A DNA stretch of 64,000 nucleotides from Candidatus Nomurabacteria bacterium (lineage in GTDB: Bacteria; Patescibacteriota; Minisyncoccia; Phycocordibacterales; SBAW01). A program made the position numbers and the translations under genes. Under the pieces are notes generated by a model. That model was not told the DNA's origin, ran no database searches, and was given only the letters and a program-made list of their open reading frames with translations. This document shows positions 34,379 through 49,919 of the stretch, one piece after another (the first letter of the stretch is position 1; each line of letters opens with the position of its first letter). The stretch spans positions 12,488 through 76,487 of the forward strand of contig CALQYT010000001.1 of NCBI GenBank assembly GCA_943348815.1. The letters run 5' to 3'.

Positions 34379-34440
34379 GTAGCAAGTAGCAGGTACCAAG
34401 TATCAAAAACTTGTTACTTGAAACTTGAGATTTGATACTT
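34379..34440. repeat. MITE-like GTATCAAG/CTTGATAC element, short empty copy, ending at the rnpA ATG
   Basis: agcaagtagcaggtaccaagtatcaaaaa | cttgttacttgaaacttgagatttgatactt has the same two halves as the copies at 13331 and 26507/26928. Confidence 0.5.
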
Positions 34441-34731
34441 ATGCTCTCAAAGAATCAGAGACTTAGAGCATCAGAGGTTCGTGAGATACTAAGCAAGGGT
34501 CGCTCGGTGCGCGGTACCGGTGTTTCGGCCAAAGTGCTGCCCGGCCGCCGCGCCGCTGCGGTGGTCGTAAGCTCTAAGGTGGCCAAGAGCGCGGTAGAGC
34601 GCAACCGCATCCGCCGCCTTGCCTACCGGGTGCTTGCCGGCTGTCTTCCCGAGGTCCGTGCCGCCTTCTTTATTGTCGACAAAAAATTTGAATCTGCAGA
34701 ACTTGTCACCCTATGTTCGAAACTATCTTAG
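34441..34731 (+). CDS. rnpA: ribonuclease P protein component
   Basis: MLSKNQRLRASEVREIL...NRIRRLAYRVL is an RnpA signature, and the gene follows rpmH. Confidence 0.8.
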   Translation: MLSKNQRLRASEVREILSKGRSVRGTGVSAKVLPGRRAAAVVVSSKVAKSAVERNRIRRLAYRVLAGCLPEVRAAFFIVDKKFESAELVTLCSKLS

Positions 34732-35447
34732 TACAGCCGATTTATAACCTGTTTATTGCCGCGGTGGGCGTTATGCCCCACGGCGACGCAGGCCTCGCTA
34801 TTATTGCGCTTACCTTCCTGATGCGGTTGGTACTGTACCCTGTGTTTACCGCCTCAATCCGCACGCAAATGGGCATGCAAGCGATGCAGGGGGACCTCGA
34901 TATAATCAAAGTTGAGCACAAAGACGACAAAGAGCGTCTCGCTCGCGAACAAATTGCCCTGTTTAAAAAACACAAAGTTAACCCCCTCGCAGGTTTTTTG
35001 GCACTCTTTATTCAGTTGGTTGTTTTGATTGCTTTATACTTCGCGCTCTTTCGTGAACATTTCCCTCAAATTGATACCGCGCTGCTGTATCCTTTTGTGC
35101 ACGCGCCCTCAGTCGTGTCGACCAACTTTTTTGGTTTGATCGACCTGCTGACACCCCACCACCTGGTGTTGCCTCTTTTAGTTGGTGCAACACAATTTGC
35201 CGCGATATGGCTCACACTTGGCCGCACCCCTTCCCCGCAAGGCGGCGGTGACAAAGCTGCGGTTGCACGCATGCAGCAACAAATGATGCTCTACTTTATG
35301 CCCGCGGTAATGGTGGTCACGACCTACTTTTTTGCCGCTGCGGTTGGCGTTTACTTTGTTGCTACCAACCTTTTTTCGGTCGGCCAGGAGTGGCTGATCC
35401 GTCGGGAGTTAAAAAACCTGCCGGCAGCCAGGCAGGCAAAAAACTAA
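34713..35447 (+). CDS. yidC: membrane protein insertase YidC (short form)
   Basis: ...MRLVLYPVFTASIRTQMGMQAMQGDLDIIKVEHKDDKERLAREQIALFKKHKVNPLAGFLALFIQL... matches the YidC/Oxa1 core, and the gene follows rnpA. Confidence 0.85.
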   Translation: MFETILVQPIYNLFIAAVGVMPHGDAGLAIIALTFLMRLVLYPVFTASIRTQMGMQAMQGDLDIIKVEHKDDKERLAREQIALFKKHKVNPLAGFLALFIQLVVLIALYFALFREHFPQIDTALLYPFVHAPSVVSTNFFGLIDLLTPHHLVLPLLVGATQFAAIWLTLGRTPSPQGGGDKAAVARMQQQMMLYFMPAVMVVTTYFFAAAVGVYFVATNLFSVGQEWLIRRELKNLPAARQAKN

Positions 35448-35481: not shown

Positions 35482-35964
35482 TTGGTTTATAGTGCGTGCA
35501 TGGACGCCGCACTCCTTAAAAGCCTGGTAACCGAGCTCCTCACCCTTCTTGAGGTAGCCGTAGGTTCGGTGGAGGTTAAGACCGGTCACCGCACGTTGGT
35601 GCAAGTAACCTCTGAGGATTCGGCCCGACTCATTGGCCCTCAAGGAGAGAGCCTGCGCTCGCTCAATACCCTTGCCCGCCGGTTGGTTGAGGCTAAACAC
35701 GGCGAGCAGGCGGCCAACTTTTTAATTGACGTCAACGGCTATCATGAAGCGCAAATGGAAAAGGTACGCGCCCAGGCGCGCATGATGGCACAGCGCGCAC
35801 GGCTTTTTAAACACGATGTCGAGATGAGCCCCATGAGCCCGTACGAACGGTTAGTGGTGCACGAACTATTTTCAGAAGATCCAGAAATTAAGACCGAGTC
35901 GGCAGGCGAAGGAAAGTTCCGCCACATTATACTCAAATACAAAGACGCCGGGTTTGTGAGCTAA
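35482..35964 (+). CDS. jag: Jag/KhpB-like KH + R3H domain RNA-binding protein
   Basis: KH region (...VQVTSEDSARLIGPQGESLRSL...) and R3H region (...MSPYERLVVHELF...) in the canonical rnpA-yidC-jag order. Start may instead be the ATG at 35500. Confidence 0.7.
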   Translation: MVYSACMDAALLKSLVTELLTLLEVAVGSVEVKTGHRTLVQVTSEDSARLIGPQGESLRSLNTLARRLVEAKHGEQAANFLIDVNGYHEAQMEKVRAQARMMAQRARLFKHDVEMSPMSPYERLVVHELFSEDPEIKTESAGEGKFRHIILKYKDAGFVS

Positions 35965-37181
35965 TTAGTTAAGCGGATCGTCCACAGCGAGCGGTCGCCT
36001 TTGCGCACATAGGCCGCATAGTGGTCGTCTGGTGAGAGGGTGAGCGAGGCAAAGTCAGCTTGCTGGCCTCCGTCGGTAGAGCCCGGTACGGCGAGCGCCT
36101 GCCGCGCTCCCGTGGTGAGGTTGTACGAGAGCAGCGCGTCCGAGTAGCTCGCGGTCCCCATACGCCAAAGGTCAGGATAGTTAGGGGGCGCGCTACTATC
36201 GTAGGGCGCTCCGCAGTAGAGTACCGTGCTTGAGGCATTACCAAACGCACACTGCTCGGGCATTGGGGTAAGCACAAGGGGTAGCGCGATGCCGGTTTTA
36301 ATAGTGTAAGAGTACGTGGTACGTGAATCACCGCTCGTTTGGTACACCACATGCGCAAACGCGCGGTCGGCGATCGCGGTTAACCCCGCGCCAAAAAGGA
36401 TCGGGCTTGAAGCGCCGCTTTTGGTGTCGATGGCAAGTGCAATACCCGCGACACCACTTGCGGCTGCACTTTGTACCAACAAAGTTCCTGGTGCTGGCCA
36501 ACCAAGGGCTATCTGCGAGAGTGGGAGTGAAGTAAGTTTTTGTCCTCCCCCATTTGGTTTGGCGATAAAAATATCTGCGCCGCTTTGCGTTTTAACTACA
36601 TAGGCAATGTTGCTGCCGTCAGGTGCGACAGCCAAGCTACTGATGCTATTAGGTAAAAACTGTATGCGTGCAAGCGGCGTAGTAGTGCTGCCGGGTGTAG
36701 GGAGTGAAATATGCGCAGTTTTAACCGTGGTGCCATCGAGATACTGCACCAAAACGCCAGCCCCCCGCTCGCTCCAAAAAGCTTGGGCGATACCGGGCAC
36801 GGTGGTGTTGGAGAGCGCTTTGGGTATTGCGCCCGGCGAGTCAAGGGCCACTTCCATCACGTGGCCGTTCGATTGCAGCACATAGCGCGCCACGGTGGTG
36901 GTTGGGTGGCCGGTTTGCAACAGGACTGCCCCGGCAATAGGACCCTCGGCTATTTTAGTTATTTTTTGTCCAACCGAGTTGGTGTTTTGCACCGGTTGTG
37001 CGGTGTTGGTAGTTTGTTCTTGTGTTGCGGTGGTGGTAGTTTTTGTGCCACTTTCCCCAAAGCCGGTATTGGTTGTGGCAGTGGGTGGGGTCGCGGTTTG
37101 AGAAAATACAAACCACACTAGCAGCAGTGCGGCTACCGCTCCTAAACCGACGATGCTAAGAATTACTTTCCAGTTGTTCAT
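35961..37181 (-). CDS. membrane-anchored/secreted Thr-rich protein (last gene of the T4SS operon)
   Basis: N-terminal TM/signal MNNWKVILSIVGLGAVAALLLVWFVF, then a Thr-rich linker and a ~300-aa beta-rich domain. Confidence 0.45.
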   Translation of the reverse strand: MNNWKVILSIVGLGAVAALLLVWFVFSQTATPPTATTNTGFGESGTKTTTTATQEQTTNTAQPVQNTNSVGQKITKIAEGPIAGAVLLQTGHPTTTVARYVLQSNGHVMEVALDSPGAIPKALSNTTVPGIAQAFWSERGAGVLVQYLDGTTVKTAHISLPTPGSTTTPLARIQFLPNSISSLAVAPDGSNIAYVVKTQSGADIFIAKPNGGGQKLTSLPLSQIALGWPAPGTLLVQSAAASGVAGIALAIDTKSGASSPILFGAGLTAIADRAFAHVVYQTSGDSRTTYSYTIKTGIALPLVLTPMPEQCAFGNASSTVLYCGAPYDSSAPPNYPDLWRMGTASYSDALLSYNLTTGARQALAVPGSTDGGQQADFASLTLSPDDHYAAYVRKGDRSLWTIRLTN

Positions 37182-37183: not shown

Positions 37184-37747
37184 TTAGGAGGCGCCTGTGG
37201 GGCAGCCTACGGCGCCTGTGCAGTTTTTGGCCGGAGTAAACGAAGCGTTTATGCTTGCGGCGTCGGGTGCTGTTCCGGCGCCCGGGGTGGGCGTAGCGGC
37301 CGGTGCATTGCCGTTGCGTAAGTTATTGATATCGCTCCCTAGTTTATCTAATTGCAAAAGCTGGGGGTTAATAGTTTCGAGTATGAGCACGGACATCACC
37401 AACAATAGTAACCCCCACATCGCTGCTTTAGCACGCTCTTTGGCTCTAGAAATATCAACACCCGATTCTGAAACCATGTAGCCGATGCCCGCGACAACCA
37501 GCATCACTACGGCAAAGAGCGCGCCAAAGGTGAGTAGTAGCCGGAAGGTGTTGTTGACGAGCGCGCCAAAGTCGGTACCGCTTTGCCCGCATTTTCCAGC
37601 TCCGTCGGGGCACGGCAGCGGCTCGAGTGGTGTATACGTACACTGGCCACTTTTTGGGTCACAAAACGGTGCTGCGTGTGCATGCGGGGCGGCAATCACC
37701 CCAAGAAACAGTATGGTCAGTAGGCTGATTAAAAAGTATTTCTTCAT
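37184..37747 (-). CDS. T4SS pilin-like protein (TrbC/VirB2-like topology: signal peptide + two TM helices)
   Basis: Signal peptide MKKYFLISLLTILFLGVIAAPHAHA, a Cys-rich segment, two TM helices (FRLLLTFGALFAVVMLVVAGIGYMV and AMWGLLLLVMSVLILETI), then a Pro/Ala/Thr tail. Confidence 0.4.
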   Translation of the reverse strand: MKKYFLISLLTILFLGVIAAPHAHAAPFCDPKSGQCTYTPLEPLPCPDGAGKCGQSGTDFGALVNNTFRLLLTFGALFAVVMLVVAGIGYMVSESGVDISRAKERAKAAMWGLLLLVMSVLILETINPQLLQLDKLGSDINNLRNGNAPAATPTPGAGTAPDAASINASFTPAKNCTGAVGCPTGAS

Positions 37748-39402
37748 AGGCCAAAGAGATTAAGTAGCGGTGTGCTCGATTGAGCGCCAAAAACCAACTG
37801 CAATGAGCGCTGCGCGGTTTGTACAAACTGGTCAGGGGTCGAGTTTTGTACCGAAACACCGAGTGTAGCGACTCCTTCCCCCGATCCTGCTTGGCGTAGC
37901 GTCAGCAAGCCCTGCGCGGCATCAGGACCGGTTGTCTGTTGTTGATTTAGTGTCCACACAAACGGAATGGCTCCTTGGTTGCGCGCGGTTGTTGAAAAAA
38001 AGTACGGTTCAGCTTTGACCGTAATTTCTTTACCCACTAACGAGAGGGCCTCAGGAAGTGCGGCGTCATATAGGGTGCCACGCAGGGCATCGTATTGATA
38101 AAACAAAACTTGAGGATTGCTCGTCGGGATCGATATCGCCGCCCTCCCCACCCTGTTATTGCCGTAGTACACTTCTACCCCAACATCCTCGGCCGCTTGG
38201 AGCTGGTCGCCCGCGTAGCTGAAGGTGTTACGCCCAAGGCCCGACTGCTCGGGCACAGCATCACCGTTGCGCGTCCATTGGTATGAGAGTGCTTGGGGGA
38301 GCACGCGCGCACCACCGGAGTAAACCGTGGGGAACGCAACTACTTTGTATAAAGAGCCGGCGCTGTAAAGCGCTTTGCCGGTATAAAACGGTGGTACGGT
38401 AGTGTCTGCCTCCCACAACAAGTTGATGCGCGAGGGCGTGAAGCTAAAGGTTTGGGTAAAAAATCCTTGCGAGGAATCTGTTGAGACTTTGATAGTAGTT
38501 TTTTCTCCCAAGTTGCCGGTGACAAACGTGTAGCGACGCTCGCCAACACCTTCTTTCACCGTCTTACCGTCTTGCGTCCATGCCAGAGTGGCACTGCCCA
38601 AAAAAGAGCCAACACCCTGCACCTCAATAGTGACACTTTCATGCGGTCCGGGCACCTCCGGGTTGACGACGTATTGTATTGGCGGCGGCACCGCCTGCGC
38701 GTGCGCGGTGAGTCCTAAGCAAAGTAAGAGTGCCAGCGCCGCGCCCTTCATAGCGGGTTTGATGTCAGCAAAGCGGTTCGACAATAGAGGGGTGCGCGGA
38801 GAATTTTTTTGTTTTTCTTCCTCCTCTGGTGTTTGTTGTCCAGTTTGTGGTCGCCCTCGATTTATATTGGCCGCTTGTACTCCCACGTTGGCAACTTTTT
38901 GTACCAAATCGCCACCAGGCAAGAGTCCCAGCGCAGTACTGAGCAGCGTGCTGCCCTGCTTTAGCCCACCTTGCTCATGGCGCTTGATGCAGCGGCGCAC
39001 CATAATAGTCCATGCTGGTACAAAGCTACTCAAAATAGGAATCACTTTAAATACCGAACTACGGAAGAAAAGATCGGGATAAAACATACCACCCCACGCA
39101 AGACCCAGCACCAACACACTGCCAAAGGTAATGCCGATGAAATAGCCTACCGCAGCTCCTAGTGGCACCGCAAAGGCGCTTGCGGCCGCTCCCATAACTC
39201 CTCCGGCAACGGCACACGCAGCTCCGTTAGTAATTCCTTCCACAATACCTCCTGAGAGGGTCCAACAAATATATCCGCCCCCTAACGCTCCTGCCGCGCC
39301 GCTGCCATAGGGTGTAGCCCACTGGAGTGCAAGGAAAATAAAAAAGAAAATAAATTGCAGGGTGTCGGTGATCAATGCCAGACCGATCAAAAACCACTTC
39401 AT
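37744..39402 (-). CDS. T4SS-operon membrane protein (Gly-rich polytopic N-domain + internal signal-peptide-like segment + ~300-aa extracytoplasmic domain)
   Basis: 552 aa. The N-terminal 150 aa hold Gly-zipper TM helices. At ~aa 225, MKGAALALLLCLGLTAHAQA looks like a cleavable signal peptide. ATGA overlap with virB4. Confidence 0.5.
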   Translation of the reverse strand: MKWFLIGLALITDTLQFIFFFIFLALQWATPYGSGAAGALGGGYICWTLSGGIVEGITNGAACAVAGGVMGAAASAFAVPLGAAVGYFIGITFGSVLVLGLAWGGMFYPDLFFRSSVFKVIPILSSFVPAWTIMVRRCIKRHEQGGLKQGSTLLSTALGLLPGGDLVQKVANVGVQAANINRGRPQTGQQTPEEEEKQKNSPRTPLLSNRFADIKPAMKGAALALLLCLGLTAHAQAVPPPIQYVVNPEVPGPHESVTIEVQGVGSFLGSATLAWTQDGKTVKEGVGERRYTFVTGNLGEKTTIKVSTDSSQGFFTQTFSFTPSRINLLWEADTTVPPFYTGKALYSAGSLYKVVAFPTVYSGGARVLPQALSYQWTRNGDAVPEQSGLGRNTFSYAGDQLQAAEDVGVEVYYGNNRVGRAAISIPTSNPQVLFYQYDALRGTLYDAALPEALSLVGKEITVKAEPYFFSTTARNQGAIPFVWTLNQQQTTGPDAAQGLLTLRQAGSGEGVATLGVSVQNSTPDQFVQTAQRSLQLVFGAQSSTPLLNLFGL

Positions 39403-41207
39403 AGTCCTGCCTCAGCCTTTTTTTGCCGCAGGGCCAAGACCTGCGATGGGTCAGACGTAATAATTTGATCTTCGGTATAGGACGCAATTACCTTGATAGC
39501 CACGTGCTTCATGCCGGCAAAAAAGATTCCCTCTCCCACGTCGCTCTCGAGTAATAGATATTTTTCTTCATCCGAAAGATTAAACGTTTTTTGCAGATTG
39601 TCGATCGTGGTTGGCGATTGTTTAAGCAATATCTGGATCGATGAGTTGGTGATCATCGGCAGGCCGTAGGGCGACTTTAGAAAGTCGTCCACGTCTTGGG
39701 TAATCGTGGCGAGGCCGAGATAATATTTGCGTCCACGTTTTGCCATCGAGTACAAAAAGCTCGCCGTGTCGTCGGACTTCATCATCCACCAGGCCTCGTC
39801 GATAACGAGGAGGCGTTTTTTCAGATTTTTGCGCACCGCATTCCAGATGTAGTGGGTAATCAGGTACATGGCGACGGGTTTGAGGTCATCCTCCATGTCG
39901 CGTACCGAAAACACCACAAACTTTTTGTTGATATCGACATTGGTCGGCTGGTTGATAAAGCCAGCCCAGGTGCCTTTAGTATATTTGCTCAGGCGTTGTA
40001 CCAATGACTCCGAGCCCTGCATGCCGGCGAGTACTAACTCAAAGTCGCTTAAGAGCGGCGGCTCTGTCTCCGCAAAGTTGGAGTCGACGGTAATATCCTT
40101 AAGCGCGTATGTTTCGCTAATCGCTTTGTCGATGATGGCGTCTTCTTCGGGCGTGAGGCCACCGAGCATAATCCGGAACATTCCTACGAGGGCGACGATA
40201 TTTGAACGCAAAATATCAGCCGGCGACTCGTCCTCGCGCGGCGGCGGTAAATCAAAGGGGTTGATGTGGTTTTCGGAGTTAAGGGAGATATTGAAGTAGC
40301 GTCCCCCTACCGTTTGGGCCAAAAATTCGTATTCGCGCTCGGGGTCTATCACGACCACCTCGGTATCAAACATCAGCGTACGCAAAATCTCGAGTTTGGT
40401 GGCGTAGCTTTTGCCCGAGCCCGATTTGGCAAAAATAACCGAGTTGTAGTTCTCTAACGAAAAGCGATCAAAGAGTACGAGCGATGCGTTGTGGCGGTTG
40501 ACGCCGTACAGTATGCCTTTGTCGGAGGTGAGGTCAAACGATACAAAGGGAAATATTGAAGAGAGCGGCGAAGAATTGAGCTTGGAGTTGACGTTGAGTT
40601 CGTCGTGCCCAAGCGGCATCACTGATTTAAAACCTTGTTCTTGTTGAAAGAGCGCAGGCTTAACATACACCAAGCGTGACTCGAGCATCGACTTTATTTC
40701 GCTCTCCGCTTTGTCTAACTCTTCCACCGACTCGCCATAGATAGTGATGTAGACGCCAACGTCAAAAAGTTTTTCTTGCGCCTGCTGCAGCTGATCACGT
40801 AAGGTTTCGAGGTCTTGATACGCGGTGTCCAAGACCGGGTCGCGCACGAGGCCCTTTTCCTCCCTCGTCATAATTTGTGACTGTACCTCGGCGACTTTCT
40901 TTTGAAACTTTTTGAGTATATCGGCCGAGTCTATTGGGTGGATAAAGATTGATATGTCGAGCACCCGGTCGAGGTTAATGATAGGCGAAAACCACGAGTC
41001 AGAAAGCACGCGCGGGTACGACATTACAAAGAAAGTGCGCGCAATTTTGTCGCCTAGGTTTATTTCGCGCGGCGTAATTTTAAGGGCCGAAGGTGCGATA
41101 ACATCTTGCAGTTCGAGTACCCCCTGTTTGTAAATAGCCTCGGGGAGTATCGGGGCAATCGGTGCCTCGGCTGTCTTTTTTTTGTTTAAAAAATCAAGTA
41201 ATGCCAT
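39399..41207 (-). CDS. virB4: VirB4/TrbE-family T4SS ATPase (Gram-positive TcpF/PrgJ-like, 602 aa)
   Basis: Walker A IFAKSGSGKSYATK, Walker B LLVIDEAWWMM, and the motif ...GLATITQDVDDF.... Confidence 0.85.
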   Translation of the reverse strand: MALLDFLNKKKTAEAPIAPILPEAIYKQGVLELQDVIAPSALKITPREINLGDKIARTFFVMSYPRVLSDSWFSPIINLDRVLDISIFIHPIDSADILKKFQKKVAEVQSQIMTREEKGLVRDPVLDTAYQDLETLRDQLQQAQEKLFDVGVYITIYGESVEELDKAESEIKSMLESRLVYVKPALFQQEQGFKSVMPLGHDELNVNSKLNSSPLSSIFPFVSFDLTSDKGILYGVNRHNASLVLFDRFSLENYNSVIFAKSGSGKSYATKLEILRTLMFDTEVVVIDPEREYEFLAQTVGGRYFNISLNSENHINPFDLPPPREDESPADILRSNIVALVGMFRIMLGGLTPEEDAIIDKAISETYALKDITVDSNFAETEPPLLSDFELVLAGMQGSESLVQRLSKYTKGTWAGFINQPTNVDINKKFVVFSVRDMEDDLKPVAMYLITHYIWNAVRKNLKKRLLVIDEAWWMMKSDDTASFLYSMAKRGRKYYLGLATITQDVDDFLKSPYGLPMITNSSIQILLKQSPTTIDNLQKTFNLSDEEKYLLLESDVGEGIFFAGMKHVAIKVIASYTEDQIITSDPSQVLALRQKKAEAGL

Positions 41208-41213
41208 AGGTTT

Positions 41214-41873
41214 TTAGCGTTGGGCGAGCTCTCCTACCTGCAGCGGCTTCTCCAACTCGCCGGGGTTAAAGAGTTTGTAGAATAATTCTATAACCTCTTC
41301 GGTACCGAGCTTGACCACCCGCACGCCGGTGCGCACCAAACCTTGCTCTATCACCGACATGCGCTGCTCAAGCTGGGTACGGTACTGCTCGAACACCTCG
41401 TCCGAAAGCGAAGTTTTTGCCGAGCTACTCCCCGGCAGCAAACTCCCCAGTATCCCCCCGCTGCGGTTAACGAGCGCCGGGTCGTAGGGTACGACGATAA
41501 AAAAGTTTTTGGTCATGATGTTGGCGCGCTCGGTAAAGTCTTTGATAAACGCAACATACTCGCGGATCTGGATCTTCATAAGATCATCGAGCTCAACTTG
41601 CAGGCGCTCTTGCAAGAGTGCGATGTAGGGGCGGATATCGAGTTCGCGACTTTCGACAAAAAACTGCGTGGTAAATTCGAGTGAGTTAAGAAAATTTTGG
41701 AACTGTCCCATGACCGCCTGTTGCTCGTCTTGTGATTTGAGCGCCAAGTTGATAGACGATGCCATCAAAAGTACCCGCAGCGAGCCGTCCTTAAGTATCA
41801 CTACCCCATCGCGTACTTCTTTGAGAGGTACGAAATCCTGGGTTGCTTGGGCTTTTACTTTAGTGTCGGCCAT
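41214..41873 (-). CDS. T4SS-associated protein resembling the VirB4 N-terminal (CagE/TrbE/VirB) domain
   Basis: ...DFVPLKEVRDGVVILKDGSLRVLLMASSINLALKSQDEQQAV... resembles the N-terminal region of VirB4 proteins. It ends 6 bp before virB4. Confidence 0.4.
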   Translation of the reverse strand: MADTKVKAQATQDFVPLKEVRDGVVILKDGSLRVLLMASSINLALKSQDEQQAVMGQFQNFLNSLEFTTQFFVESRELDIRPYIALLQERLQVELDDLMKIQIREYVAFIKDFTERANIMTKNFFIVVPYDPALVNRSGGILGSLLPGSSSAKTSLSDEVFEQYRTQLEQRMSVIEQGLVRTGVRVVKLGTEEVIELFYKLFNPGELEKPLQVGELAQR

Positions 41874-41876: not shown

Positions 41877-42320
41877 TTAGATTGCGAAGTTTTCGTTTTT
41901 TGTGGTTCCGTTTTCGCGGTCTTTAATATTGAGCGACCACGACAAGTCTTTGAGTTTGCTTTGGGATAGTTTGGGTACGGGGAGCGCTTCGGGCTTGACC
42001 CCTGCCGGTTGTGTCGAGGAGGCTGCGTGTTGCTGCTGTTGCCAAAGGTAGAGTTTGCTGCCAAAAAAGTAATTAAAAGCGTGTTCCACCGCGTGTATGA
42101 GCGGCCGGCCGTTGACTTTAAAAAATGCCAACCCTATCGCAAAGGCGATGACGGGGATCGAGAAGACAACCGTAAGGTAGAGCGGCAGGAAGGTAAACAG
42201 CACTAAGCACATCCCGCCGGCGCCGCCGAGATAGACAAATTGTTTTAGCGTTAGGGGGCCAAAGATTTTGTCTTCGACCTCGATAAATTGAGGTACTTGA
42301 TACTGAGCCATCAGTATCAA
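41877..42320 (-). CDS. VirB3/PrgI-like small membrane protein
   Basis: 147 aa with two TM helices (...LGGAGGMCLVLFTFLPLYLTVVFSIPVIAFAIGLAFF...), positioned just upstream of the VirB4-related genes. Confidence 0.5.
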   Translation of the reverse strand: MILMAQYQVPQFIEVEDKIFGPLTLKQFVYLGGAGGMCLVLFTFLPLYLTVVFSIPVIAFAIGLAFFKVNGRPLIHAVEHAFNYFFGSKLYLWQQQQHAASSTQPAGVKPEALPVPKLSQSKLKDLSWSLNIKDRENGTTKNENFAI

Positions 42321-42335: not shown

Positions 42336-42956
42336 TTAATTGGTTGGCTCGCGATACGGATCTGCTTTGTACGGTTGAGGTTTAGCAGGCGTTGTGTCCT
42401 GGGGAGCCTTCGGCGGAGCCGGAGGTGGTGCCACACTTACGGTTTTTTGGGTGAGCATCATATCCGTCGGATGTATATCCGGAGCTTTGGCGGGTAGCGG
42501 TGCTGCTGGCATAACGGGTGCCGGTACACTTGGCGCGGCAGGTGCCGGTGGTGTTGGAGAGACAGGAGTTGTGGTCACGGGTGCCACGGTTTTGGGCGCT
42601 TTGGCTTCTTCTGCCAGTGTTTCCCGGAGGGCACGTTCTTCCGTAAACTCTTGCATTGACTGCCGTATCGGTACAAACAGCGCCTCACTAAGCTCACGCG
42701 CGATAGCCTCGGCTTTGTCTTGAGGTACCTTTACCTGTTTAGCGATAGTACCAGCAAACTCTGTAGGTTCGGTAAAGCCCAGCATAACCAGGTAGGTCTC
42801 GTCGCTCAGACTGCCAATCTGGTCTATATGGAGTGCATTCTTGACGCCGATTTCTTGTATTTTTTTATCCGCATCGGCAGAGGTAATTGCCCGCTGAACG
42901 TCTTGCGGTAGTTCTTCAAACCGTGCTTGAATTTTTTGTCGTACGTTTTGGTCCAT
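42336..42956 (-). CDS. hypothetical protein with Pro-rich C-terminal half
   Basis: Globular N-terminal region of ~110 aa followed by ...TPVSPTPPAPAAPSVPAPVMPAAPLPAKAP.... Confidence 0.4.
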   Translation of the reverse strand: MDQNVRQKIQARFEELPQDVQRAITSADADKKIQEIGVKNALHIDQIGSLSDETYLVMLGFTEPTEFAGTIAKQVKVPQDKAEAIARELSEALFVPIRQSMQEFTEERALRETLAEEAKAPKTVAPVTTTPVSPTPPAPAAPSVPAPVMPAAPLPAKAPDIHPTDMMLTQKTVSVAPPPAPPKAPQDTTPAKPQPYKADPYREPTN

Positions 42957-42975: not shown

Positions 42976-45237
42976 TTAATGCTCCGTATCGTCCCGGTGT
43001 ACATCATCTTCCTCCCCTTCTTCTCTGGGTGGTGTTGCTGGTGCGCGGCTTCCCCTGTCAGGTCGTGCGGGAGTTTCATACCCATCTGCTACCTTTTCTC
43101 CCTTACTGCCCAACATATTTTTTACCCGGTCGGCATCCTTGTCGCTGCCGCGTATTTGGGCTATAGCTTCTTGGTCTGCTACTGCAGTATATTTCCAAAA
43201 TGGGAAATAAGGGTGTGAAGCGAGACTCCACACGTTACGCCAATCGTGGGTTTCTAACGATTTTGCGTACGTCTTTGCGTTGTCGCCGCCCACTGCTTTT
43301 TTGGCGTCGACTATGGCAGTTTTTAGATCTTTTACTTTACCATCGGCACCCGTAACGGTAAGATTTTTAACCACTTGATTGTATTCATCCCGCGCGTCGT
43401 TCACCTCTTTTTGGCTCGCGAGGTTGTTCTTTCGGTCTTCTATTTTTTGCGAGTAGGTGCCCGCCGCATTCATCAATCGCTGTCGCTGGTCTTTGTCTAG
43501 TTTTGAAAGCACCCCTCCCAGAGAATCGGAGAGCTGCCGGTCGGTCGGTTTGAGTGCCTTAGATTCTTTCTCGCGCCATTCGGTACGTTTTTGCTCTCTT
43601 GCGAGGAACCCGCCCTCGCCTTTGGCATCACCCACCTCAAGGCCCAACTTGCTCGCTCCTGTTTTAAGGAGGCCAACACCGCGTGCATCAAAACTGGCTT
43701 TTCCCAATGCTCCTGCCGCACGCCAGGCGTTTCTGCGCAATAACCCTCCCTCGGCAGCCCAGTTACGCATTCTAGTACTTTGGGCGGCTCGCAGTGCTCC
43801 ATATCCAATGGTGGTGCGAGCCACCGCGCCAACCGCTCCCAGTGATTTCCCACTGGCCCAGCCCGCAGCTCCCAGTGATTTGCTCTTAGCCCAACCCATA
43901 GCCTTGCTTGCCTCTGCGCTTCCCTCTTTGACGATCCATTCCGACACATTAAGTCCGATATATATAAGCGCTACGATAAAGCCCATCTTAATTGAGACCG
44001 TAGCTATAGCTGCCAAAAAGCCGATGGAGCTGGCACCCGGGCTCCCCGGAGTGGCGTTGATAATCTCTCCAAAAATTCCGCCTGCGCCGTTGCCAGTCGT
44101 ATTAGCTGCAAAGATGGTGCTCACAATTTGAGTGAGCAAATAAAACATAAACAAGAAAATTGCCGGATAGAATGAAAATTCGATCAAATACTTGAGCCAT
44201 TTATCAAAAAAGTGTGCTGTTTTTTCGTTCGTCTTTGCAACAAACGCTAGGGGTGAGGATATAAGGACAAACCACAGCCCCACGATCCGGAGCATAAATT
44301 TAATACCCACCTGCAGGAAGCTAAAGAACAAAAGCCAAAAGATAACCGCTATCGCCAGATAGGCTACGGTAAGTACCGCAAGGCCTCCGATCTCGGCTGC
44401 CCATCCGCCTTGAGTGCCCACCGCCGTTTTAACCGCATCAAATTGTTGTTGATTAAGCAGGCTTTGGGTGCCGAGCCCATTCATAATTGCAAAACTCAAA
44501 TCTTTTGCTCCTCCTACCATGGCCGGAGTACCGTTAGAGTACTGACCTAAAGGAATTGCGTTATAAAATTGCACCGCTAAGATATTCCCCGCATCTATTG
44601 CCACGCGCGTAAAGAAGAAACTAAAGTTTACTAACAGCGCTATTACCACGACCGTCGCAAGCGTTTTGATAGTGCCCGCGGTTTCGGCTTGGAGCATTAT
44701 GGTGAGCGCCAGATAAATGAGGATAAAAATAAACGCCATGTTGGCTAAGTCGCGCACTAATTCCCAACCCGTGGAAAGAAAGTTGAGTGCGTAGGCGGTA
44801 CTGTTGAGCGAAAGTTGTATGACGATGCTAAAGAAGGCGGCACCTATATAAGCGATTTGGCTTGCAAGCGCAGGGCCAACATAATAAACAATGAGTGCCA
44901 TACAGTTGGCGAGGCTGCTGCACGTAATTTGTGAGGTAACACTACTCCCGGGGCGAGGTATCACCTGGCCGGTGGTTTGGCTTGTTACATTTCCGGTAAC
45001 AGGGCTTGCTATCAGGTCTGGGTTCTTGGTGGTTACAGTGCCTCCGAGTGTTGCAGAAACGCAGGCGTTATTGTCGGCTTGAGTAATAGTATGGCCGTCG
45101 ATGACGGTACCTACACTAGGACAGGCCGACGGCGCCGCCTGGGCTTTCTTTACTCCAACGGGGGTTGTCCCTATGGCTAGGGCTACCAATAGCACGAAGG
45201 CCCCCCCAAGAATTATTTTTAGAATTTTATTGCGCAT
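42976..45237 (-). CDS. VirB6/TrbL-like polytopic T4SS channel protein (TcpH-like, 753 aa)
   Basis: Signal peptide, ~100-aa extracytoplasmic domain, at least 6 TM helices, and a long Lys/Ala/Gly-rich hydrophilic C-terminal domain. Confidence 0.6.
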   Translation of the reverse strand: MRNKILKIILGGAFVLLVALAIGTTPVGVKKAQAAPSACPSVGTVIDGHTITQADNNACVSATLGGTVTTKNPDLIASPVTGNVTSQTTGQVIPRPGSSVTSQITCSSLANCMALIVYYVGPALASQIAYIGAAFFSIVIQLSLNSTAYALNFLSTGWELVRDLANMAFIFILIYLALTIMLQAETAGTIKTLATVVVIALLVNFSFFFTRVAIDAGNILAVQFYNAIPLGQYSNGTPAMVGGAKDLSFAIMNGLGTQSLLNQQQFDAVKTAVGTQGGWAAEIGGLAVLTVAYLAIAVIFWLLFFSFLQVGIKFMLRIVGLWFVLISSPLAFVAKTNEKTAHFFDKWLKYLIEFSFYPAIFLFMFYLLTQIVSTIFAANTTGNGAGGIFGEIINATPGSPGASSIGFLAAIATVSIKMGFIVALIYIGLNVSEWIVKEGSAEASKAMGWAKSKSLGAAGWASGKSLGAVGAVARTTIGYGALRAAQSTRMRNWAAEGGLLRRNAWRAAGALGKASFDARGVGLLKTGASKLGLEVGDAKGEGGFLAREQKRTEWREKESKALKPTDRQLSDSLGGVLSKLDKDQRQRLMNAAGTYSQKIEDRKNNLASQKEVNDARDEYNQVVKNLTVTGADGKVKDLKTAIVDAKKAVGGDNAKTYAKSLETHDWRNVWSLASHPYFPFWKYTAVADQEAIAQIRGSDKDADRVKNMLGSKGEKVADGYETPARPDRGSRAPATPPREEGEEDDVHRDDTEH

Positions 45238-47065
45238 AGCAGGCGGCGAGTTGACCTTGAGTTATCGAGTTGCGACCGGAGAGATTGCTTTGCAGCGTCG
45301 TGCGGTCTTGGGTGGCGGTGGTAACATCCGCATCGGTGATAAACGCACCCGCCGCCTGCGCTTGTTGGAAAGAGCTCGTGACCGCCGCCACATCTGCCGG
45401 CGAGGCCACGCTGATAGTGCGCGTCTGCAGGTCTTGCAGGAGTGCAATCGTTTGGTTGGCACGGGTGATGTAGTTGTTGTACATAGCAATCATCACCTGA
45501 TAGTTGTTTATTATTTCTTGGGTGCTCGATGCGTGCTGACTGTCGCCTTTGCTATCGTAACAGTTAAACAAGTCCTGCAATTTTTGTTGCGTGCTCTGGA
45601 TGTCGCTGATGCTCGCCTGCTCGACACTGCCAAACTGCTGTGCGGTCTGCACCAAATTTTGGAGCTTGGTAAGTAATGTCTGCGCATCGGCCTGTGCCTG
45701 TTGCTCGGCGGGGGTCAGATAGCTCGACGCGTACCCGTTTTGGCCCGAGAGGCTCGAGAGTCCTTGGTAGAGCGTGCGGGTTACGAGCTGGTTGAGGAGC
45801 GCGTTGATTATTTCGTCAAAACTTTTAGCCAACTGGTTGGCCAAGAAAGGTTGTTTGAGGGTTTCTTTGAGCGATGACTCCACCAAGGCGCTTGGGGTTG
45901 AGACTTTGCAATTAGTCGAGCCGGGTGGGTCGCATTTTTTGACCGAAATAAATCCGCCAGGGCTGAGGTTGCGGTTAGCATCGGTGAGCGCATTTTGTTG
46001 TGCGGTCGCGAGCCCTACCTGCGCGTAGGCGTAGGCGCCAAACGGGTTGTTGGTTGGCATAGTGGTAAATTGCAGCAGTCCCGGCCATCCACCTTGAGAA
46101 AAGTTGCCGTTCATAAAACCGGTCAGGTTTTTGACAATACCCGTGAGGGAGCAGGAGCCGGCGTTACGCTGCGCATAACTTTGCGCGATGGCAATGCGAA
46201 TTTGATTTTTGAATGGTGAGCAGAGGAACGAGAGCGCCGTGCCCTTGATAAACTCGCCTGCGGCTTGGTCGCCTACGTTGGTAAAGAATTGCTGAAAGTT
46301 TTGTACAAACGACGGTTTACCATTGAAGCCCGAGTTGATCCAGTTGACGATGCTGTTGGTCATCTGTTGGATCACCGCTTTAGCAATAGTGCGCGCCAAG
46401 CAGTCGCTGACATCTTTAAATTGATTTTGCGAGCGCTGTTTGTACGCATTAAAGTCGTAGGTGAGCACAAACCCGCCCGCTAGTGACGCCGCGCCGCGCG
46501 CGCTCGCGTCGGCATTCGCCGGTGCTTCGCTGGTGGCAAAGAGTACTGCGCAGCCTGCCGCCGCGCCAAAGAGCCCGCCCAACCCAAGCCCCAAACCATT
46601 GTTGGAACCTTGATCGCTAAAACCGGTGCCGACAATATAAGGAGTGCCGTCCACACCGCCATCTAACTGGTTAATACCCGAGGGGACAAAACTCGTGGTC
46701 GGTCTACCGGTCCCTCCGTTACCACCGCTCGCGCTCCCGTCCCCGCCTAGCCAATCTACCCCTGGTGCGCCCGCAATACCCTGGGCCGGAGCAACCCCAC
46801 CCCCCGTGCTGTTGGCATAGGGGTTAACCGCCACTCCTACGTTAGTCGCCCCCGTGGTGCCGCCGCCCACGCCGGTTATGTTAGTAGCAACATTCCCCGT
46901 CGTGCCCGCACCGCTCGTCCCTCCCTGCCTATCTTGCCCGGTGCCAAAACTCCCGGCAGGTGCTTGTGTGTTACTCTTGCCGCTAAAAAACCAAAACCAC
47001 AAAAAACCAATCAGGAGCGCAAAGGCTACCGCGGCGAGAATTATAAGGATAACGCGTTTGGTCAT
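45227..47065 (-). CDS. large membrane-anchored Gly/Thr-rich secreted protein (T4SS operon)
   Basis: N-terminal TM MTKRVILIILAAVAFALLIGFLWFWFF, a Gly/Thr low-complexity region, and a C-terminal Gln-rich coiled-coil region. 612 aa. Confidence 0.45.
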   Translation of the reverse strand: MTKRVILIILAAVAFALLIGFLWFWFFSGKSNTQAPAGSFGTGQDRQGGTSGAGTTGNVATNITGVGGGTTGATNVGVAVNPYANSTGGGVAPAQGIAGAPGVDWLGGDGSASGGNGGTGRPTTSFVPSGINQLDGGVDGTPYIVGTGFSDQGSNNGLGLGLGGLFGAAAGCAVLFATSEAPANADASARGAASLAGGFVLTYDFNAYKQRSQNQFKDVSDCLARTIAKAVIQQMTNSIVNWINSGFNGKPSFVQNFQQFFTNVGDQAAGEFIKGTALSFLCSPFKNQIRIAIAQSYAQRNAGSCSLTGIVKNLTGFMNGNFSQGGWPGLLQFTTMPTNNPFGAYAYAQVGLATAQQNALTDANRNLSPGGFISVKKCDPPGSTNCKVSTPSALVESSLKETLKQPFLANQLAKSFDEIINALLNQLVTRTLYQGLSSLSGQNGYASSYLTPAEQQAQADAQTLLTKLQNLVQTAQQFGSVEQASISDIQSTQQKLQDLFNCYDSKGDSQHASSTQEIINNYQVMIAMYNNYITRANQTIALLQDLQTRTISVASPADVAAVTSSFQQAQAAGAFITDADVTTATQDRTTLQSNLSGRNSITQGQLAACYAQ

Positions 47066-47958
47066 TGGATAGGGGTAGACACAAAAACAGTCCAGGCTGC
47101 GCCCGGTTCGCTGTTAGTAAAAAGTATACCGTTCTTGCCAAACTGTTCGGCGATAGATGTGAACACACGCGCAACTTCGCCCAGCAGGAGTTGATACTGC
47201 TGCAGCGCTTGTAGTCCGCGCAGCGGATCCTCAAACAATTTTTGCATATCTCCTACTGAGTTGGCCGCCGCTGCAAGGTCGTTGAGTGCTTGTACGTGCA
47301 GCGGTGCAAGCGTTTTGGGCACGCGGAGTTTGGTTAAGTCAGCAACCAATGCTTGGTACTCGTGTTGGACGTGCGCCAATGCTTGCAGTTGCGCGGGGCT
47401 GTCGCTGTCGGTCGCGTTGCTCATCGCGAGCAAAACATTTCTCGAAGTCGCGTCTTGGTGATTGCCTAAGGCAACCATCACCGCATTGCCGTAGTCGTGG
47501 CGCGTCTGTGTTGAGTCTTCAACTAACGTTACGTCGCTCTGGGTGTACGTTTTGGGCGTGCCGGCAACGCCGACGTTTTGGCTCACACTGGCAATAATGC
47601 TCTCTTGGGTTGGGATATCGCTCCCCATCCCCTGAGCGCTCGCGTCGCTTAAGTTTACAAACAGCGAGCGGGCGACGGTGTCGGTAAGATTGTTGCTCTT
47701 AGCGGCATTTAATAAGTTGGCGACCGCGTTTTCATCTGGTGCAGGCGGCAAACCGGGCGAGTCGGCCTGGATCTGGTCCAACTGTGCGCGCCAGTCTTCC
47801 TGTGCTTGTGCGGCCACTGCCGCGTCGTTGGTTGCAACGGTCGCCGGTGCGTGCGGGGTGGTTAAGTACTGCGATCCGACAATAAGTCCTGCTGCGGCGG
47901 CGATTGAGCCGGCGATACTTAAAAAATGCGTACTCGGTAAGTAAGCCGGGAGCCTCAT
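47062..47958 (-). CDS. membrane-anchored hypothetical protein (first gene of the T4SS operon; possibly VirB8-like)
   Basis: N-terminal TM (FLSIAGSIAAAAGLIVG) and a 270-aa extracytoplasmic domain. ATGA overlap with the next gene. Confidence 0.4.
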   Translation of the reverse strand: MRLPAYLPSTHFLSIAGSIAAAAGLIVGSQYLTTPHAPATVATNDAAVAAQAQEDWRAQLDQIQADSPGLPPAPDENAVANLLNAAKSNNLTDTVARSLFVNLSDASAQGMGSDIPTQESIIASVSQNVGVAGTPKTYTQSDVTLVEDSTQTRHDYGNAVMVALGNHQDATSRNVLLAMSNATDSDSPAQLQALAHVQHEYQALVADLTKLRVPKTLAPLHVQALNDLAAAANSVGDMQKLFEDPLRGLQALQQYQLLLGEVARVFTSIAEQFGKNGILFTNSEPGAAWTVFVSTPIQ

Positions 47959-47979: not shown

Positions 47980-48339
47980 ATGTACGCATTCAGACGGTTA
48001 CTACTGGTGGTTTTTATAGCGGGGAGCCTGTTAGTACCCTTTTTTGCCTCAGCCTACGGCATTTCGTTCGGCGGCCGAGTTGTTGATATGAATTTTTGTG
48101 TAAATGGAGCTATACAGTTTACGGTTTTGCCCGCGGGCAAGTTTCCTATAACCTATCTCTGGACTCCTTTGGTTAGACACAACTACCTGTCCCCCACCCC
48201 CACTAAGCCACCGGTGTTTGGCGAGCAAATATTAGGGTTTGCACTGCCGGCCCCCACTTTTTGTCTTGGTCCGGGCAAGTATCCTCACCAATACTTTGGC
48301 TTGCCGGTACAGTACGAGCGCTCAAGTTACGATATTTAG
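47980..48339 (+). CDS. secreted hypothetical protein
   Basis: Signal peptide MYAFRRLLLVVFIAGSLLVPFFASAYG. Divergent from the T4SS operon. Confidence 0.4.
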   Translation: MYAFRRLLLVVFIAGSLLVPFFASAYGISFGGRVVDMNFCVNGAIQFTVLPAGKFPITYLWTPLVRHNYLSPTPTKPPVFGEQILGFALPAPTFCLGPGKYPHQYFGLPVQYERSSYDI

Positions 48340-49058
48340 GAGCGACTTAGCTCAAGCCACTCTCCTAGCGAGACATCTTCGGCACGAGCGGTGCTGAGTG
48401 CGCCAATGTCACCGAGGGTGTTTCTAAGCAACTTTCTTTTTTGAGAAAATCCTTTTTTAACTAATTCGAAAAACTTTTCTTCGTGCTTTTTGTTTTTAAA
48501 ATTGGTGCGCGAAATATTTTCTATAAGCAAAATAGCCGAGTCTACTTTCGGTGGTGGCGAAAAAGCTCCGGCCGGAACCGTCTTTATGTATTTTGGATTT
48601 CCATACGCTTTTACCGAAAGAGAGAGGATACTTTCTTTTTTTGAACGCGCGATGCGTTGCGCGACCTCTTTTTGCACCAAAAATACTAACCGCGATGGCT
48701 GGTGTTCTGTTGTTAAGAATTTTTTAAACAGTGCTCCAGAAATGTAGTACGGAATATTACCCACGACTTTGTAATCTTTTAAGGCATAGTTTGATATATC
48801 AAACTCTAGTGCATCGCCCTCAATCACTTCTAAATCTTTTCCCGAAAACTTTTTGCGCAACCCTTCAATCAAGCGCGAATCTTTTTCGAGCGCAATAACG
48901 TTTGCACCGCGTTCAAGTAACTTCTCGGTTAACGCTCCCTCCCCTGGGCCAATTTCTAATACCGTCTCCCCTTCTTTGATATCAGCAGCATCAGCCACCG
49001 TATTCAAATAAAACGGGTTGTGCAAAAAGTGTTGCCCAAGTGATTTCTTTTTATACAT
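48336..49058 (-). CDS. rsmA: 16S rRNA (adenine1518/1519-N6)-dimethyltransferase KsgA/RsmA
   Basis: MYKKKSLGQHFLHNPFYLNTVADAADIKEGETVLEIGPGEGALT is a KsgA signature. The ATG start is approximate because the hand translation and the ORF track disagree by one base. Confidence 0.8.
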   Translation of the reverse strand: MYKKKSLGQHFLHNPFYLNTVADAADIKEGETVLEIGPGEGALTEKLLERGANVIALEKDSRLIEGLRKKFSGKDLEVIEGDALEFDISNYALKDYKVVGNIPYYISGALFKKFLTTEHQPSRLVFLVQKEVAQRIARSKKESILSLSVKAYGNPKYIKTVPAGAFSPPPKVDSAILLIENISRTNFKNKKHEEKFFELVKKGFSQKRKLLRNTLGDIGALSTARAEDVSLGEWLELSRS

Positions 49059-49917: not shown

Positions 49918-49919
49918 AG

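What the first reader, a model, noticed from the sequence alone, without database searches (positions are those of the whole stretch)
41214..41873. Separate 219-aa protein resembling the VirB4 N-terminal domain, directly upstream of a complete VirB4
The sequence ...DFVPLKEVRDGVVILKDGSLRVLLMASSINL... resembles the N-terminal region of VirB4/TrbE proteins. Yet the downstream 602-aa VirB4 has its own N-terminal region (...DKIARTFFVMSYPRVLSDSWFSPII...). This is either a duplicated or split N-domain acting as a separate subunit, or a remnant of a frameshifted larger gene. The 6-bp gap from 41207 to 41214 is suggestive of the second.
Basis: inference. Interest (0 to 1): 0.5.

Follow-up and report, generated by a model that had tools for sequence, protein, structure and literature searches.

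The report
Stand-alone VirB4 N-terminal module (TrsD-like)
The 219-residue gene is real and conserved: it encodes the first part of the secretion ATPase VirB4 as a separate protein (a TrsD-like protein), an arrangement already described for this bacterial group, and it is not a frameshift remnant.

Summary
The ORF 41214..41873 (-) exists as described. It sits 6 nt upstream of a 602-aa VirB4-like ATPase and 3 nt downstream of a PrgI/VirB3-like gene, in a chromosomal type IV secretion cluster next to dnaA/dnaN.

It is a remote homologue of the VirB4 N-terminus. NCBIfam places it at the N-terminal positions of three full-length VirB4-type models and on TrsD/TraD. The 602-aa protein covers only positions 185-734 of 752 of the CD1110 VirB4 model, so that VirB4 is not complete and the two genes tile one full-length VirB4.

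A related lineage (Colwellbacteria and relatives) carries the fused ~790-aa form. Its residues 4-214 match the 219-aa protein and 217-795 match the 602-aa protein.

The frameshift reading is refuted:
- The two ORFs are in the same frame, separated by one TAA.
- All 80 orthologous loci from other genomes are split, in all three relative frames.
- dN/dS is about 0.05-0.13.

The duplication reading is not supported, because sequence and profile comparisons found no similarity between the 219-aa protein and the 602-aa protein.

The same split occurs on Firmicutes plasmids (pSK41 trsD-trsE). It was reported for Patescibacteria in 2025 (PMC12102498). Verdict: already known, low interest.

The parts
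41214..41873 (-). TrsD-like gene, 219 aa: the first ~210 residues of the VirB4 N-terminal domain encoded as a stand-alone protein (Pfam PF26593 'TraC-like' by precomputed annotation).
   Evidence: ORF. NCBIfam TrsD/TraD E 9.8e-9, VirB4_plasma N-terminus E 6.9e-9, CD1110 positions 2-116. PF26593. 38% identity to residues 4-214 of the fused P0230. AlphaFold2 model pLDDT 72.6. The top 14 Foldseek PDB hits are all TrwK/VirB4. dN/dS 0.05-0.13.
41208..41213 (-). 6-nt spacer (AAACCT on the coding strand) between the TAA stop of the TrsD-like gene and the ATG of virB4. The two ORFs are in the same frame. The nearest GGAG lies about 21 nt upstream of the ATG, so there is no well-placed Shine-Dalgarno sequence.
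   Evidence: Sequence read. In 80 orthologous loci the gap is 1-507 nt (median 4) and occurs in all three relative frames.
39399..41207 (-). VirB4-like ATPase, short form, 602 aa. It holds the second half of the N-terminal domain (about residues 1-230) plus the P-loop ATPase domain, and lacks the first module.
   Evidence: NCBIfam CD1110 VirB4 E 3e-117, 392.8 bits (cut-off 325), model positions 185-734/752. Pfam P-loop_TraG, AAA_10 and DUF87. 56% identity to residues 217-795 of the fused P0230. In the family profile the ATPase part at 448-744 matches TrwK 446-735.
41877..42320 (-). PrgI/VirB3-like small membrane protein gene, ending 3 nt before the TrsD-like start codon.
   Evidence: Pfam PF12666 PrgI, E 1.3e-9, 38.9 bits (cut-off 27). 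The gene order PrgI / TrsD-like / VirB4 recurs in L001, on the C. botulinum plasmid pCBG and, in the analogous VirB3-like / trsD / VirB4-like form, on pSK41.
42976..45237 (-). VirB6/TrbL-like polytopic membrane protein, 753 aa.
   Evidence: Pfam PF04610 TrbL, E 1.4e-7, 32 bits (cut-off 25.9).
37184..37747 (-). Candidate VirB2-like T4SS pilin, 187 aa (weak, below the Pfam cut-off).
   Evidence: Pfam PF18895 T4SS_pilin, E 4.9e-4, 20.6 bits (cut-off 26.6). VirB2-like pilins near virB4 in Patescibacteria are described in PMC12102498.
37744..39402 (-). 552-aa membrane protein of unknown family. It overlaps the virB4 stop by 4 nt and the pilin-like gene by 4 nt, so it belongs to the same tightly packed operon.
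   Evidence: ORF coordinates. No Pfam family above threshold.

Best explanation
The 219-aa ORF is a functional, conserved gene. It encodes the first structural module (about 210 residues) of the VirB4 N-terminal domain as a separate polypeptide, a TrsD-like protein. The 602-aa gene that follows encodes the rest of VirB4: the second half of the N-terminal domain plus the ATPase domain. This is a natural gene fission of VirB4, fixed in this Patescibacteria lineage (Adlerbacteria/Paceibacteria-type genomes). It also occurs in pGO1/pSK41-type and other Firmicutes T4SS.

Inferred mechanism:
- The three genes PrgI(VirB3) / TrsD-like / VirB4 are co-transcribed and probably translationally coupled, given gaps of 3 and 6 nt.
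- The TrsD-like protein binds non-covalently to the short VirB4 and reconstitutes a complete N-terminal domain.
- In canonical T4SS that domain connects the two protomers of each VirB4 dimer, embeds in the membrane and contacts VirB3 and VirB8.
- The small protein would therefore dock the ATPase onto the PrgI/VirB6 membrane platform.

Shown here: homology, tiling, conservation of the split, purifying selection and synteny. Inferred: physical binding to VirB4 and PrgI, and translational coupling.
For: Identity and tiling:
- NCBIfam places the 219-aa protein at CD1110 positions 2-116 and the 602-aa protein at positions 185-734 of the same 752-position model. The same holds for VirB4_plasma, 99-233 versus 286-893.
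- The fused relative P0230 (797 aa) matches the small protein at 4-214 (E 2e-46) and the ATPase at 217-795.
- At least 115 clusters of 775-807 aa carry PF26593 together with the ATPase domains.
- The AlphaFold2 model of the fused form aligns end to end with full-length TrwK/VirB4: 844 columns, TM 0.57, E 8.5e-27.
- The model of the 219-aa protein has TrwK/VirB4 as its 14 best Foldseek PDB hits.

Real gene and stable split:
- 7,892 scored homologues; the 120 best are all 217-225 aa.
- 2,219 clusters at 50% identity. Of the 150 best, 149 are stand-alone (<=443 aa) and one is fused.
- 80 of 80 orthologous loci are split, in all three relative frames.
- dN/dS is 0.05-0.13.

Synteny: PrgI / TrsD-like / VirB4 is also found on C. 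botulinum pCBG. A TrsD-like gene directly upstream of a short VirB4-like ATPase is found on Halobacillus and Pontibacillus plasmids. pSK41 carries trsD directly upstream of a 672-aa VirB4-like (DUF87) gene at the TrsE position.

Literature:
[quoted passage not shown] It is the most abundant T4SS component found in Patescibacteria (2,272 homologues, 1,664 associated with VirB4), and its homologue is listed as essential in Ca. S. epibionticum ML1.
- The role of the VirB4 N-terminal domain in dimer contacts, membrane embedding and VirB3/VirB8 contacts is taken from PMC12857230.
Against: - The NCBIfam TrsD/TraD match (35.3 bits) is far below that family's curated cut-off of 200 bits.
- Direct comparison with pSK41 TrsD is not significant by BLASTP and weak by hhalign (E 0.004, probability 8%).
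- The local Pfam scan found no family for the 219-aa protein, including PF03135. PF26593 is known only from precomputed annotation.
- No tool here could test the physical interaction with VirB4 or PrgI. [quoted passage not shown]
Confidence: 0.82

Rival explanations
1. Remnant of a larger virB4 gene broken by a frameshift or nonsense mutation, either a sequencing or assembly error or a recent pseudogenisation.
For: Only 6 nt separate the ORFs, and a single in-frame TAA is all that distinguishes them from one 824-codon ORF. Fused ~790-aa forms exist in related bacteria.
Against: - There is no frame change at all.
- 80 of 80 orthologous loci in other genomes are split, with varying gaps and all three relative frames.
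- The identical split is seen in two further independent assemblies carrying the same protein (L001, L002).
- dN/dS is 0.05-0.13.
- The VirB4 ATG start is conserved in all 80 loci.
- The split pair has about 32 residues of extra termini at the junction, against 2 residues in the fused form.
- A truly damaged fused gene looks different. L086 has an internal deletion of residues 90-192 plus a frame change.
Confidence: 0.02
2. An extra, duplicated copy of the VirB4 N-terminal module, acting beside a VirB4 that keeps its own complete N-terminal domain.
For:
- In the fused model the order of secondary-structure elements in residues 14-207 and 239-393 is alike: three strands, helix, strand, two helices, strand, helix, strand, helix. 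The VirB4 N-terminal domain may therefore be an ancient tandem repeat.
Against: - The 602-aa protein lacks model positions 1-184 of CD1110 VirB4 and residues 1-216 of the fused relative.
- The family profile is collinear with TrwK, 448-744 versus 446-735. A full N-terminal domain of about 445 residues therefore needs both proteins.
- There is no sequence similarity between the two proteins or between the two modules by hhalign, probability 0.6%.
Confidence: 0.04
3. Programmed read-through of the in-frame TAA yields a fused full-length VirB4 in addition to the two separate proteins.
For: The two ORFs are in the same frame with a single stop and two sense codons between them.
Against: Only 18 of 80 orthologous loci are in frame, fewer than the 27 expected by chance. 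Many have gaps of 1, 2, 4 or 5 nt that rule out read-through. No conserved read-through context was seen.
Confidence: 0.02
4. The small protein has diverged to a function of its own, for example an assembly chaperone, regulator or substrate adaptor of the T4SS. In that case it no longer simply completes the VirB4 N-terminal domain.
For: - No function is assigned to TrsD (PMC12102498).
- 38 of the 150 best representative homologues are 261-450 aa. The twelve whose sequence beyond residue 215 was printed mostly carry low-complexity P/Q/E/T-rich C-terminal tails with no similarity to VirB4. This shows independent evolution of the stand-alone form.
- In Gracilibacteria, TrsD homologues are not associated with virB4 (PMC12102498).
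Against: In this lineage the gene is always immediately upstream of virB4 (66 of 80 gaps are <=13 nt). It is highly conserved and has no extra tail. The fused lineage shows that the same module works as an integral part of VirB4.
Confidence: 0.1

Closest known systems
TrsD homologues of the Patescibacteria T4SS (Quinonero-Coronel et al. 2025, PMC12102498)
   Same: A small protein with remote homology to the VirB4 N-terminus, encoded next to virB4 together with PrgI/VirB3, VirB6 and VirB2-like pilins. The cluster is chromosomal, close to dnaA/dnaN/ksgA, and has no relaxase nearby. All of this holds in this window.
   Different: Nothing substantive. This window is one more instance. That paper does not discuss fused versus split forms. 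Here a fused ~790-aa lineage (Colwellbacteria and relatives) shows that the split pair tiles a full-length VirB4 exactly.
TrsD/TraD of pGO1/pSK41-type staphylococcal conjugative plasmids (NCBIfam NF041427)
   Same: Same size class (227 aa versus 219 aa). Same position between a small VirB3-like membrane protein gene and a short VirB4-like ATPase gene (672 aa versus 602 aa), with short gaps. The family HMM matches at E 9.8e-9 over positions 13-144/201.
   Different: Very distant. The score is 35 bits against a cut-off of 200, and BLASTP to pSK41 TrsD is not significant. The pSK41 system is plasmid-borne and conjugative (MOB-suite typing: relaxases MOBQ/MOBV). This cluster is chromosomal and probably serves another purpose.
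N-terminal domain of full-length VirB4 (TrwK of R388, PDB 7O41/8RTD; CD1110-family VirB4 of Firmicutes)
   Same: Collinear homology with the first ~215 residues. Foldseek puts TrwK chains as the 14 best matches of the model.
   Different: It is a separate polypeptide without the ATPase domain. Pfam PF03135 does not match. Sequence identity to TrwK in the structural alignment is only 10-14%.
Fused VirB4 of Colwellbacteria-type Patescibacteria (P0230 family, 775-807 aa)
   Same: Same module at 38% identity and same ATPase at 56% identity. The gene likewise follows a PrgI gene and lies beside dnaA.
   Different: One polypeptide instead of two. The junction is 2 residues long, whereas the split pair has about 32 residues of extra termini there.

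Membership tests
TrsD/TraD family conjugative transfer protein (NCBIfam NF041427) | Score at or above the curated whole-protein cut-off of the family HMM (200 bits) | tested here: not met
   35.3 bits, E 9.8e-9, residues 9-130 on model positions 13-144/201. BLASTP to pSK41 TrsD is not significant. hhalign gives E 0.004, probability 8%.
TrsD/TraD family conjugative transfer protein (NCBIfam NF041427) | Stand-alone protein of about 200-230 aa, encoded between a VirB3-like gene and a short VirB4-like ATPase gene | tested here: met
   Window order is PrgI 41877..42320, the ORF 41214..41873, then VirB4 39399..41207. pSK41 has a 135-aa gene, trsD (227 aa), then a 672-aa DUF87 ATPase.
Pfam PF26593 (TraC-like) | Significant match to the family HMM | tested here: inconclusive
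   Precomputed annotation lists PF26593 for this exact protein and for all 120 best homologues (an unmarked entry means E <= 1e-5). The local Pfam-A scan returned no family at E <= 0.1. I could not tell whether that copy holds the model, and no score could be obtained.
VirB4 / TraC / TrbE ATPase (full-length; TIGR00929, CD1110 family, PF03135) | Collinear homology to the N-terminal ~200 residues of full-length VirB4 | tested here: met
   VirB4_plasma positions 99-233/894, E 6.9e-9; CD1110 positions 2-116/752, E 2.4e-4; TrbE positions 8-87/815, E 0.02. Fused P0230 residues 4-214, E 2e-46. Foldseek top 14 hits are all TrwK.
VirB4 / TraC / TrbE ATPase (full-length; TIGR00929, CD1110 family, PF03135) | P-loop ATPase domain in the same polypeptide | tested here: not met
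   The 219-aa protein has no ATPase-domain match. The ATPase domain lies in the separate 602-aa protein (P-loop_TraG E 9.9e-27).
   No PF03135 hit at E <= 0.1 for the 219-aa or the 602-aa protein.
Frameshifted or pseudogenised gene fragment | Frame change at the junction, close orthologues intact as one ORF, and relaxed selection | tested here: not met
   Same frame with one TAA. 80 of 80 orthologous loci are split. dN/dS is 0.05-0.13.
Patescibacteria chromosomal T4SS cluster (MPF-FATA-related, PMC12102498) | VirB4 with PrgI/VirB3, VirB6 and TrsD nearby, located close to dnaA/dnaN/ksgA | tested here: met
   PrgI, TrbL/VirB6 and VirB4. dnaN 31584..32681, dnaA 32803..34140, yidC 34713..35447, ksgA 48336..49109.

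The most novel reading that the evidence does not exclude
The VirB4 N-terminal domain may be built from two tandem alpha/beta modules of like topology. Gene fission and fusion would then have occurred repeatedly, exactly at the boundary between them, in monoderm-type T4SS (Patescibacteria split versus Colwellbacteria fused; pSK41-, pCBG- and CD1110-type plasmids split). Once detached, the first module evolves as an adaptor subunit in its own right. Many homologues have gained long disordered P/Q/E-rich tails, and some are no longer linked to virB4. This could let the machine vary the stoichiometry or partners of the membrane-docking module. The paper read here (PMC12102498) does not describe this.
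Probability: 0.15. Interest if true: 0.35.

Novelty: already known. Interest (0 to 1): 0.15.

Why it matters
The practical value is for annotation. This ORF should be called a TrsD-like / VirB4 N-terminal module protein and should not be flagged as a pseudogene or assembly error. The adjacent 'VirB4' should be understood as the short form that needs it.

Biologically, the T4SS of Patescibacteria is essential for the epibiotic lifestyle in the one species tested (PMC12102498, PMC12857230), and TrsD has no assigned function. The exact tiling against fused relatives gives a concrete, testable role for it, namely completing the VirB4 N-terminal domain at the VirB3/membrane interface. The existence of the gene and its homology to VirB4 were already published.

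Tried and rejected
- phmmer of the 219-aa protein against PDB sequences gave only chance hits (staphylocoagulase, E ~0.9).
- The local Pfam scan of the 219-aa protein found nothing, including PF03135.
- BLASTP and hhalign against pSK41 TrsD were insignificant or weak.
- The test for an internal repeat or duplication was negative: BLASTP of the 219-aa against the 602-aa protein, and hhalign of module 1 against module 2 and against the ATPase part.
- I considered that the 600-aa P0289 inside the fused clade might be a recent natural fission. It is a fused gene with an internal deletion and a frame change, so I rejected it as an example of a clean split.
- Papers on pELF2 TraD and pNP40 TraE concern other proteins (a VirD4-type ATPase; a full VirB4) and do not bear on TrsD.
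- The idea of stop-codon read-through was rejected from the frame statistics.

Full report
**Observation.** The ORF at 41214..41873 on the minus strand is present as described: ATG start, 219 aa, containing DFVPLKEVRDGVVILKDGSLRVLLMASSINL. It is followed by a 602-aa ORF at 39399..41207 and preceded by a 147-aa ORF at 41877..42320. Read on the coding strand, the junction is ...CAA CGC TAA AAA CCT ATG GCA.... The gap is therefore 6 nt, and the two ORFs are in the same reading frame, separated by one TAA stop and two sense codons. A frameshift cannot be the cause of the split. Only a nonsense codon could be.

**What the two proteins are.**
- *The 602-aa protein.* Pfam gives P-loop_TraG (E 9.9e-27), AAA_10 and DUF87. 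NCBIfam assigns it to the CD1110 family of VirB4-like ATPases (E 3e-117, 392.8 bits, above the cut-off of 325). It covers only model positions 185-734 of 752, and positions 286-893 of 894 in VirB4_plasma.
NCBIfam matches the N-terminal positions of the same full-length models: VirB4_plasma 99-233 (E 6.9e-9), CD1110 2-116 (E 2.4e-4) and TrbE 8-87 (E 0.02). It also matches the TrsD/TraD family at positions 13-144 of 201 (E 9.8e-9, 35 bits, far below that family's cut-off of 200). Precomputed annotation assigns it to Pfam PF26593 'TraC-like', which the local scan did not report.

The two proteins thus tile a full-length VirB4. The downstream gene is not a 'complete' VirB4.

**A fused relative confirms the tiling.**
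- The exhaustive representative search found 2,219 clusters (50% identity level) with E <= 1e-3. Of the 150 best, 149 are <=443 aa and one, P0230, is 797 aa.
- P0230 residues 4-214 align to residues 7-209 of the 219-aa protein (38% identity, E 2e-46). P0230 residues 217-795 align to residues 23-597 of the 602-aa protein (56% identity).
- P0230 is not a singleton. A search with it returned more than 115 clusters of 775-807 aa carrying PF26593 together with the ATPase domains. The named ones come from Candidatus Colwellbacteria, 'Patescibacteria group' and 'Parcubacteria group' genomes, and some lie on contigs of several hundred kb.
- In one such genome the fused gene follows a PrgI gene and lies beside rnpA, yidC, dnaA and dnaN.
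- A profile of this family matches TrwK (VirB4 of R388) collinearly in the ATPase part, profile 448-744 against TrwK 446-735. About 445 residues precede the ATPase domain in both.
- The AlphaFold2 model of P0230 (pLDDT 73) aligns end to end with full-length TrwK chains: 844 columns, TM 0.57 both ways, E 8.5e-27.
- The model of the 219-aa protein alone (pLDDT 72.6) has TrwK/VirB4 chains as its 14 best Foldseek hits in the PDB (E 1.7e-3 to 5.7e-2, probability 0.89-1.0).

**Is the split real and stable?**
- The word-indexed search scored 7,892 homologues. The 120 best are all 217-225 aa and 80-100% identical to the query. The few that carry a source name come from Adlerbacteria, Paceibacterota or 'Patescibacteria group' genomes.
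- The identical protein occurs on two further independent assemblies with the same 6-nt spacing.
- I fetched 80 orthologous loci from 80 different genomes (58-86% identity) and located the stop of the small ORF and the start of virB4 in each. Every locus has a stop between the two genes.
- In every locus the VirB4 alignment begins at query residue 1 on an ATG.
- The gap is 1-507 nt, median 4, and <=13 nt in 66 of 80 loci. The relative frame is 0, +1 and +2 in 18, 42 and 20 loci.
- The in-frame arrangement of this window is therefore coincidental. It is no commoner than chance, which also argues against programmed read-through.
- Pairwise dN/dS between the window gene and 11 orthologues is 0.05-0.13, and dS was too saturated to estimate in 7 more.
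- By contrast, a truly damaged gene was found in passing. P0289 (600 aa) inside the fused clade comes from a locus where residues 90-192 of the fused gene are deleted and the frame changes.

**Split or duplicated?** The 219-aa protein shows no similarity to the 602-aa protein by BLASTP. Profiles of module 1 and of the following 226 residues show none by hhalign, probability 0.6%. The tiling described above supports a split. One caveat remains. In the fused model the order of secondary-structure elements in residues 14-207 and 239-393 is alike. I could not superpose the modules, so this stays untested.

**Context.** The gene lies in a tightly packed minus-strand operon:
- two unknown genes at 45227..47958;
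- a TrbL/VirB6-like gene at 42976..45237;
- an unknown 206-aa gene;
- PrgI/VirB3, the TrsD-like gene and VirB4;
- a 552-aa membrane protein overlapping the virB4 stop by 4 nt;
- a weak T4SS-pilin-like gene at 37184..37747.

The flanks are chromosomal: dnaN, dnaA and yidC on one side, ksgA and a UvrD helicase on the other. This is the layout described for Patescibacteria T4SS in PMC12102498.

**Comparison with what is known.**
- PMC12102498 reports TrsD as the most abundant T4SS component detected in Patescibacteria: 2,272 homologues, of which 1,664 are associated with VirB4.
[quoted passage not shown] 2014, with no function assigned.
- It notes that the homologue in Ca. S. epibionticum ML1 is listed as essential.
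- The same split exists on Firmicutes plasmids. pSK41 has a 135-aa membrane protein gene, trsD (227 aa), then a 672-aa DUF87 ATPase after a 14-nt gap. C. botulinum pCBG has PrgI, a 257-aa 'TraC family protein', then a 620-aa ATPase. Halobacillus and Pontibacillus plasmids have the same arrangement.
- The feature is therefore already known, and this window adds one more instance. The exact tiling against a fused Patescibacteria lineage is a detail that the paper does not discuss.

**Mechanism (inferred).** In canonical T4SS the VirB4 N-terminal domains connect the two protomers of each dimer, embed in the inner membrane, and contact VirB3 and VirB8, anchoring the ATPase (PMC12857230). The gene order PrgI(VirB3) / module 1 / rest of VirB4 mirrors the order of contacts in a fused protein. 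The most likely role of the 219-aa protein is to bind the short VirB4 non-covalently and complete its N-terminal domain at the PrgI/membrane interface. The gaps of 3 and 6 nt, with no well-placed Shine-Dalgarno sequence before virB4, suggest translational coupling that would keep the two parts roughly equimolar. None of this binding was testable here.

**Verdict.**
- Observation: confirmed, apart from the word 'complete'.
- The preferred interpretation, a frameshift remnant: refuted.
- The alternative, a split N-domain as a separate subunit: supported.
- 'Duplicated': not supported.
- Novelty: already known.
- Interest: low.

Noticed in passing
window 31584..35447 and 48336..51827: The T4SS cluster lies directly beside the replication-origin genes dnaN (31584..32681, -), dnaA (32803..34140, -) and yidC (34713..35447, +). 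On the other side are ksgA/RrnaAD (48336..49109, -) and a UvrD helicase (49920..51827, -). No relaxase was seen among the genes scanned. This matches the origin-proximal location reported for Patescibacteria T4SS.
   Followed up: partly
L086 1213..1667 (NCBI CAYJCP010000001.1): Inside the clade of fused VirB4 genes, one locus has lost residues 90-192 of the N-terminal module and changes frame, leaving a called 600-aa 'VirB4' (P0289). This is a real deletion, pseudogene or assembly error, and a useful contrast to the clean split in the window.
   Followed up: yes
proteins P0154, P0155, P0156, P0157, P0163, P0177 and others: 38 of the 150 best representative homologues of the 219-aa protein are 261-450 aa. 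In most of the twelve printed, the extra length is a low-complexity P/Q/E/T/A-rich C-terminal tail. None of the 38 shows similarity to VirB4. Its function is unknown.
   Followed up: partly
fused model of P0230, residues 14-207 versus 239-393; the window equivalents are the 219-aa protein and residues ~45-200 of the 602-aa protein: The two halves of the VirB4 N-terminal domain show the same order of secondary-structure elements: three strands, helix, strand, two helices, strand, helix, strand, helix. This hints at an ancient tandem duplication, with the gene fission falling exactly between the repeats. hhalign detects no sequence similarity.
   Followed up: partly
window 52048..53160 (+): A LysM + Peptidase_M23 protein (370 aa) is encoded about 4 kb beyond the T4SS cluster. 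It is a candidate peptidoglycan hydrolase that could play the VirB1-like role, as discussed for Patescibacteria in PMC12102498.
   Followed up: no
window 41214..41873: The local Pfam-A scan reports no family for this protein at E <= 0.1. The precomputed tables list PF26593 (TraC-like) for it and for all 120 best homologues. This looks like a difference between Pfam versions, so negative local Pfam results here should be read with that in mind.
   Followed up: no
window 35961..37181, 37744..39402, 42336..42956, 45227..47958 (-): Five further genes of the same operon (406, 552, 206, 612 and 298 aa) have no Pfam family. Several have N-terminal hydrophobic segments and Thr/Pro/Gly-rich stretches. 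They are candidates for lineage-specific T4SS surface or cell-wall components.
   Followed up: no
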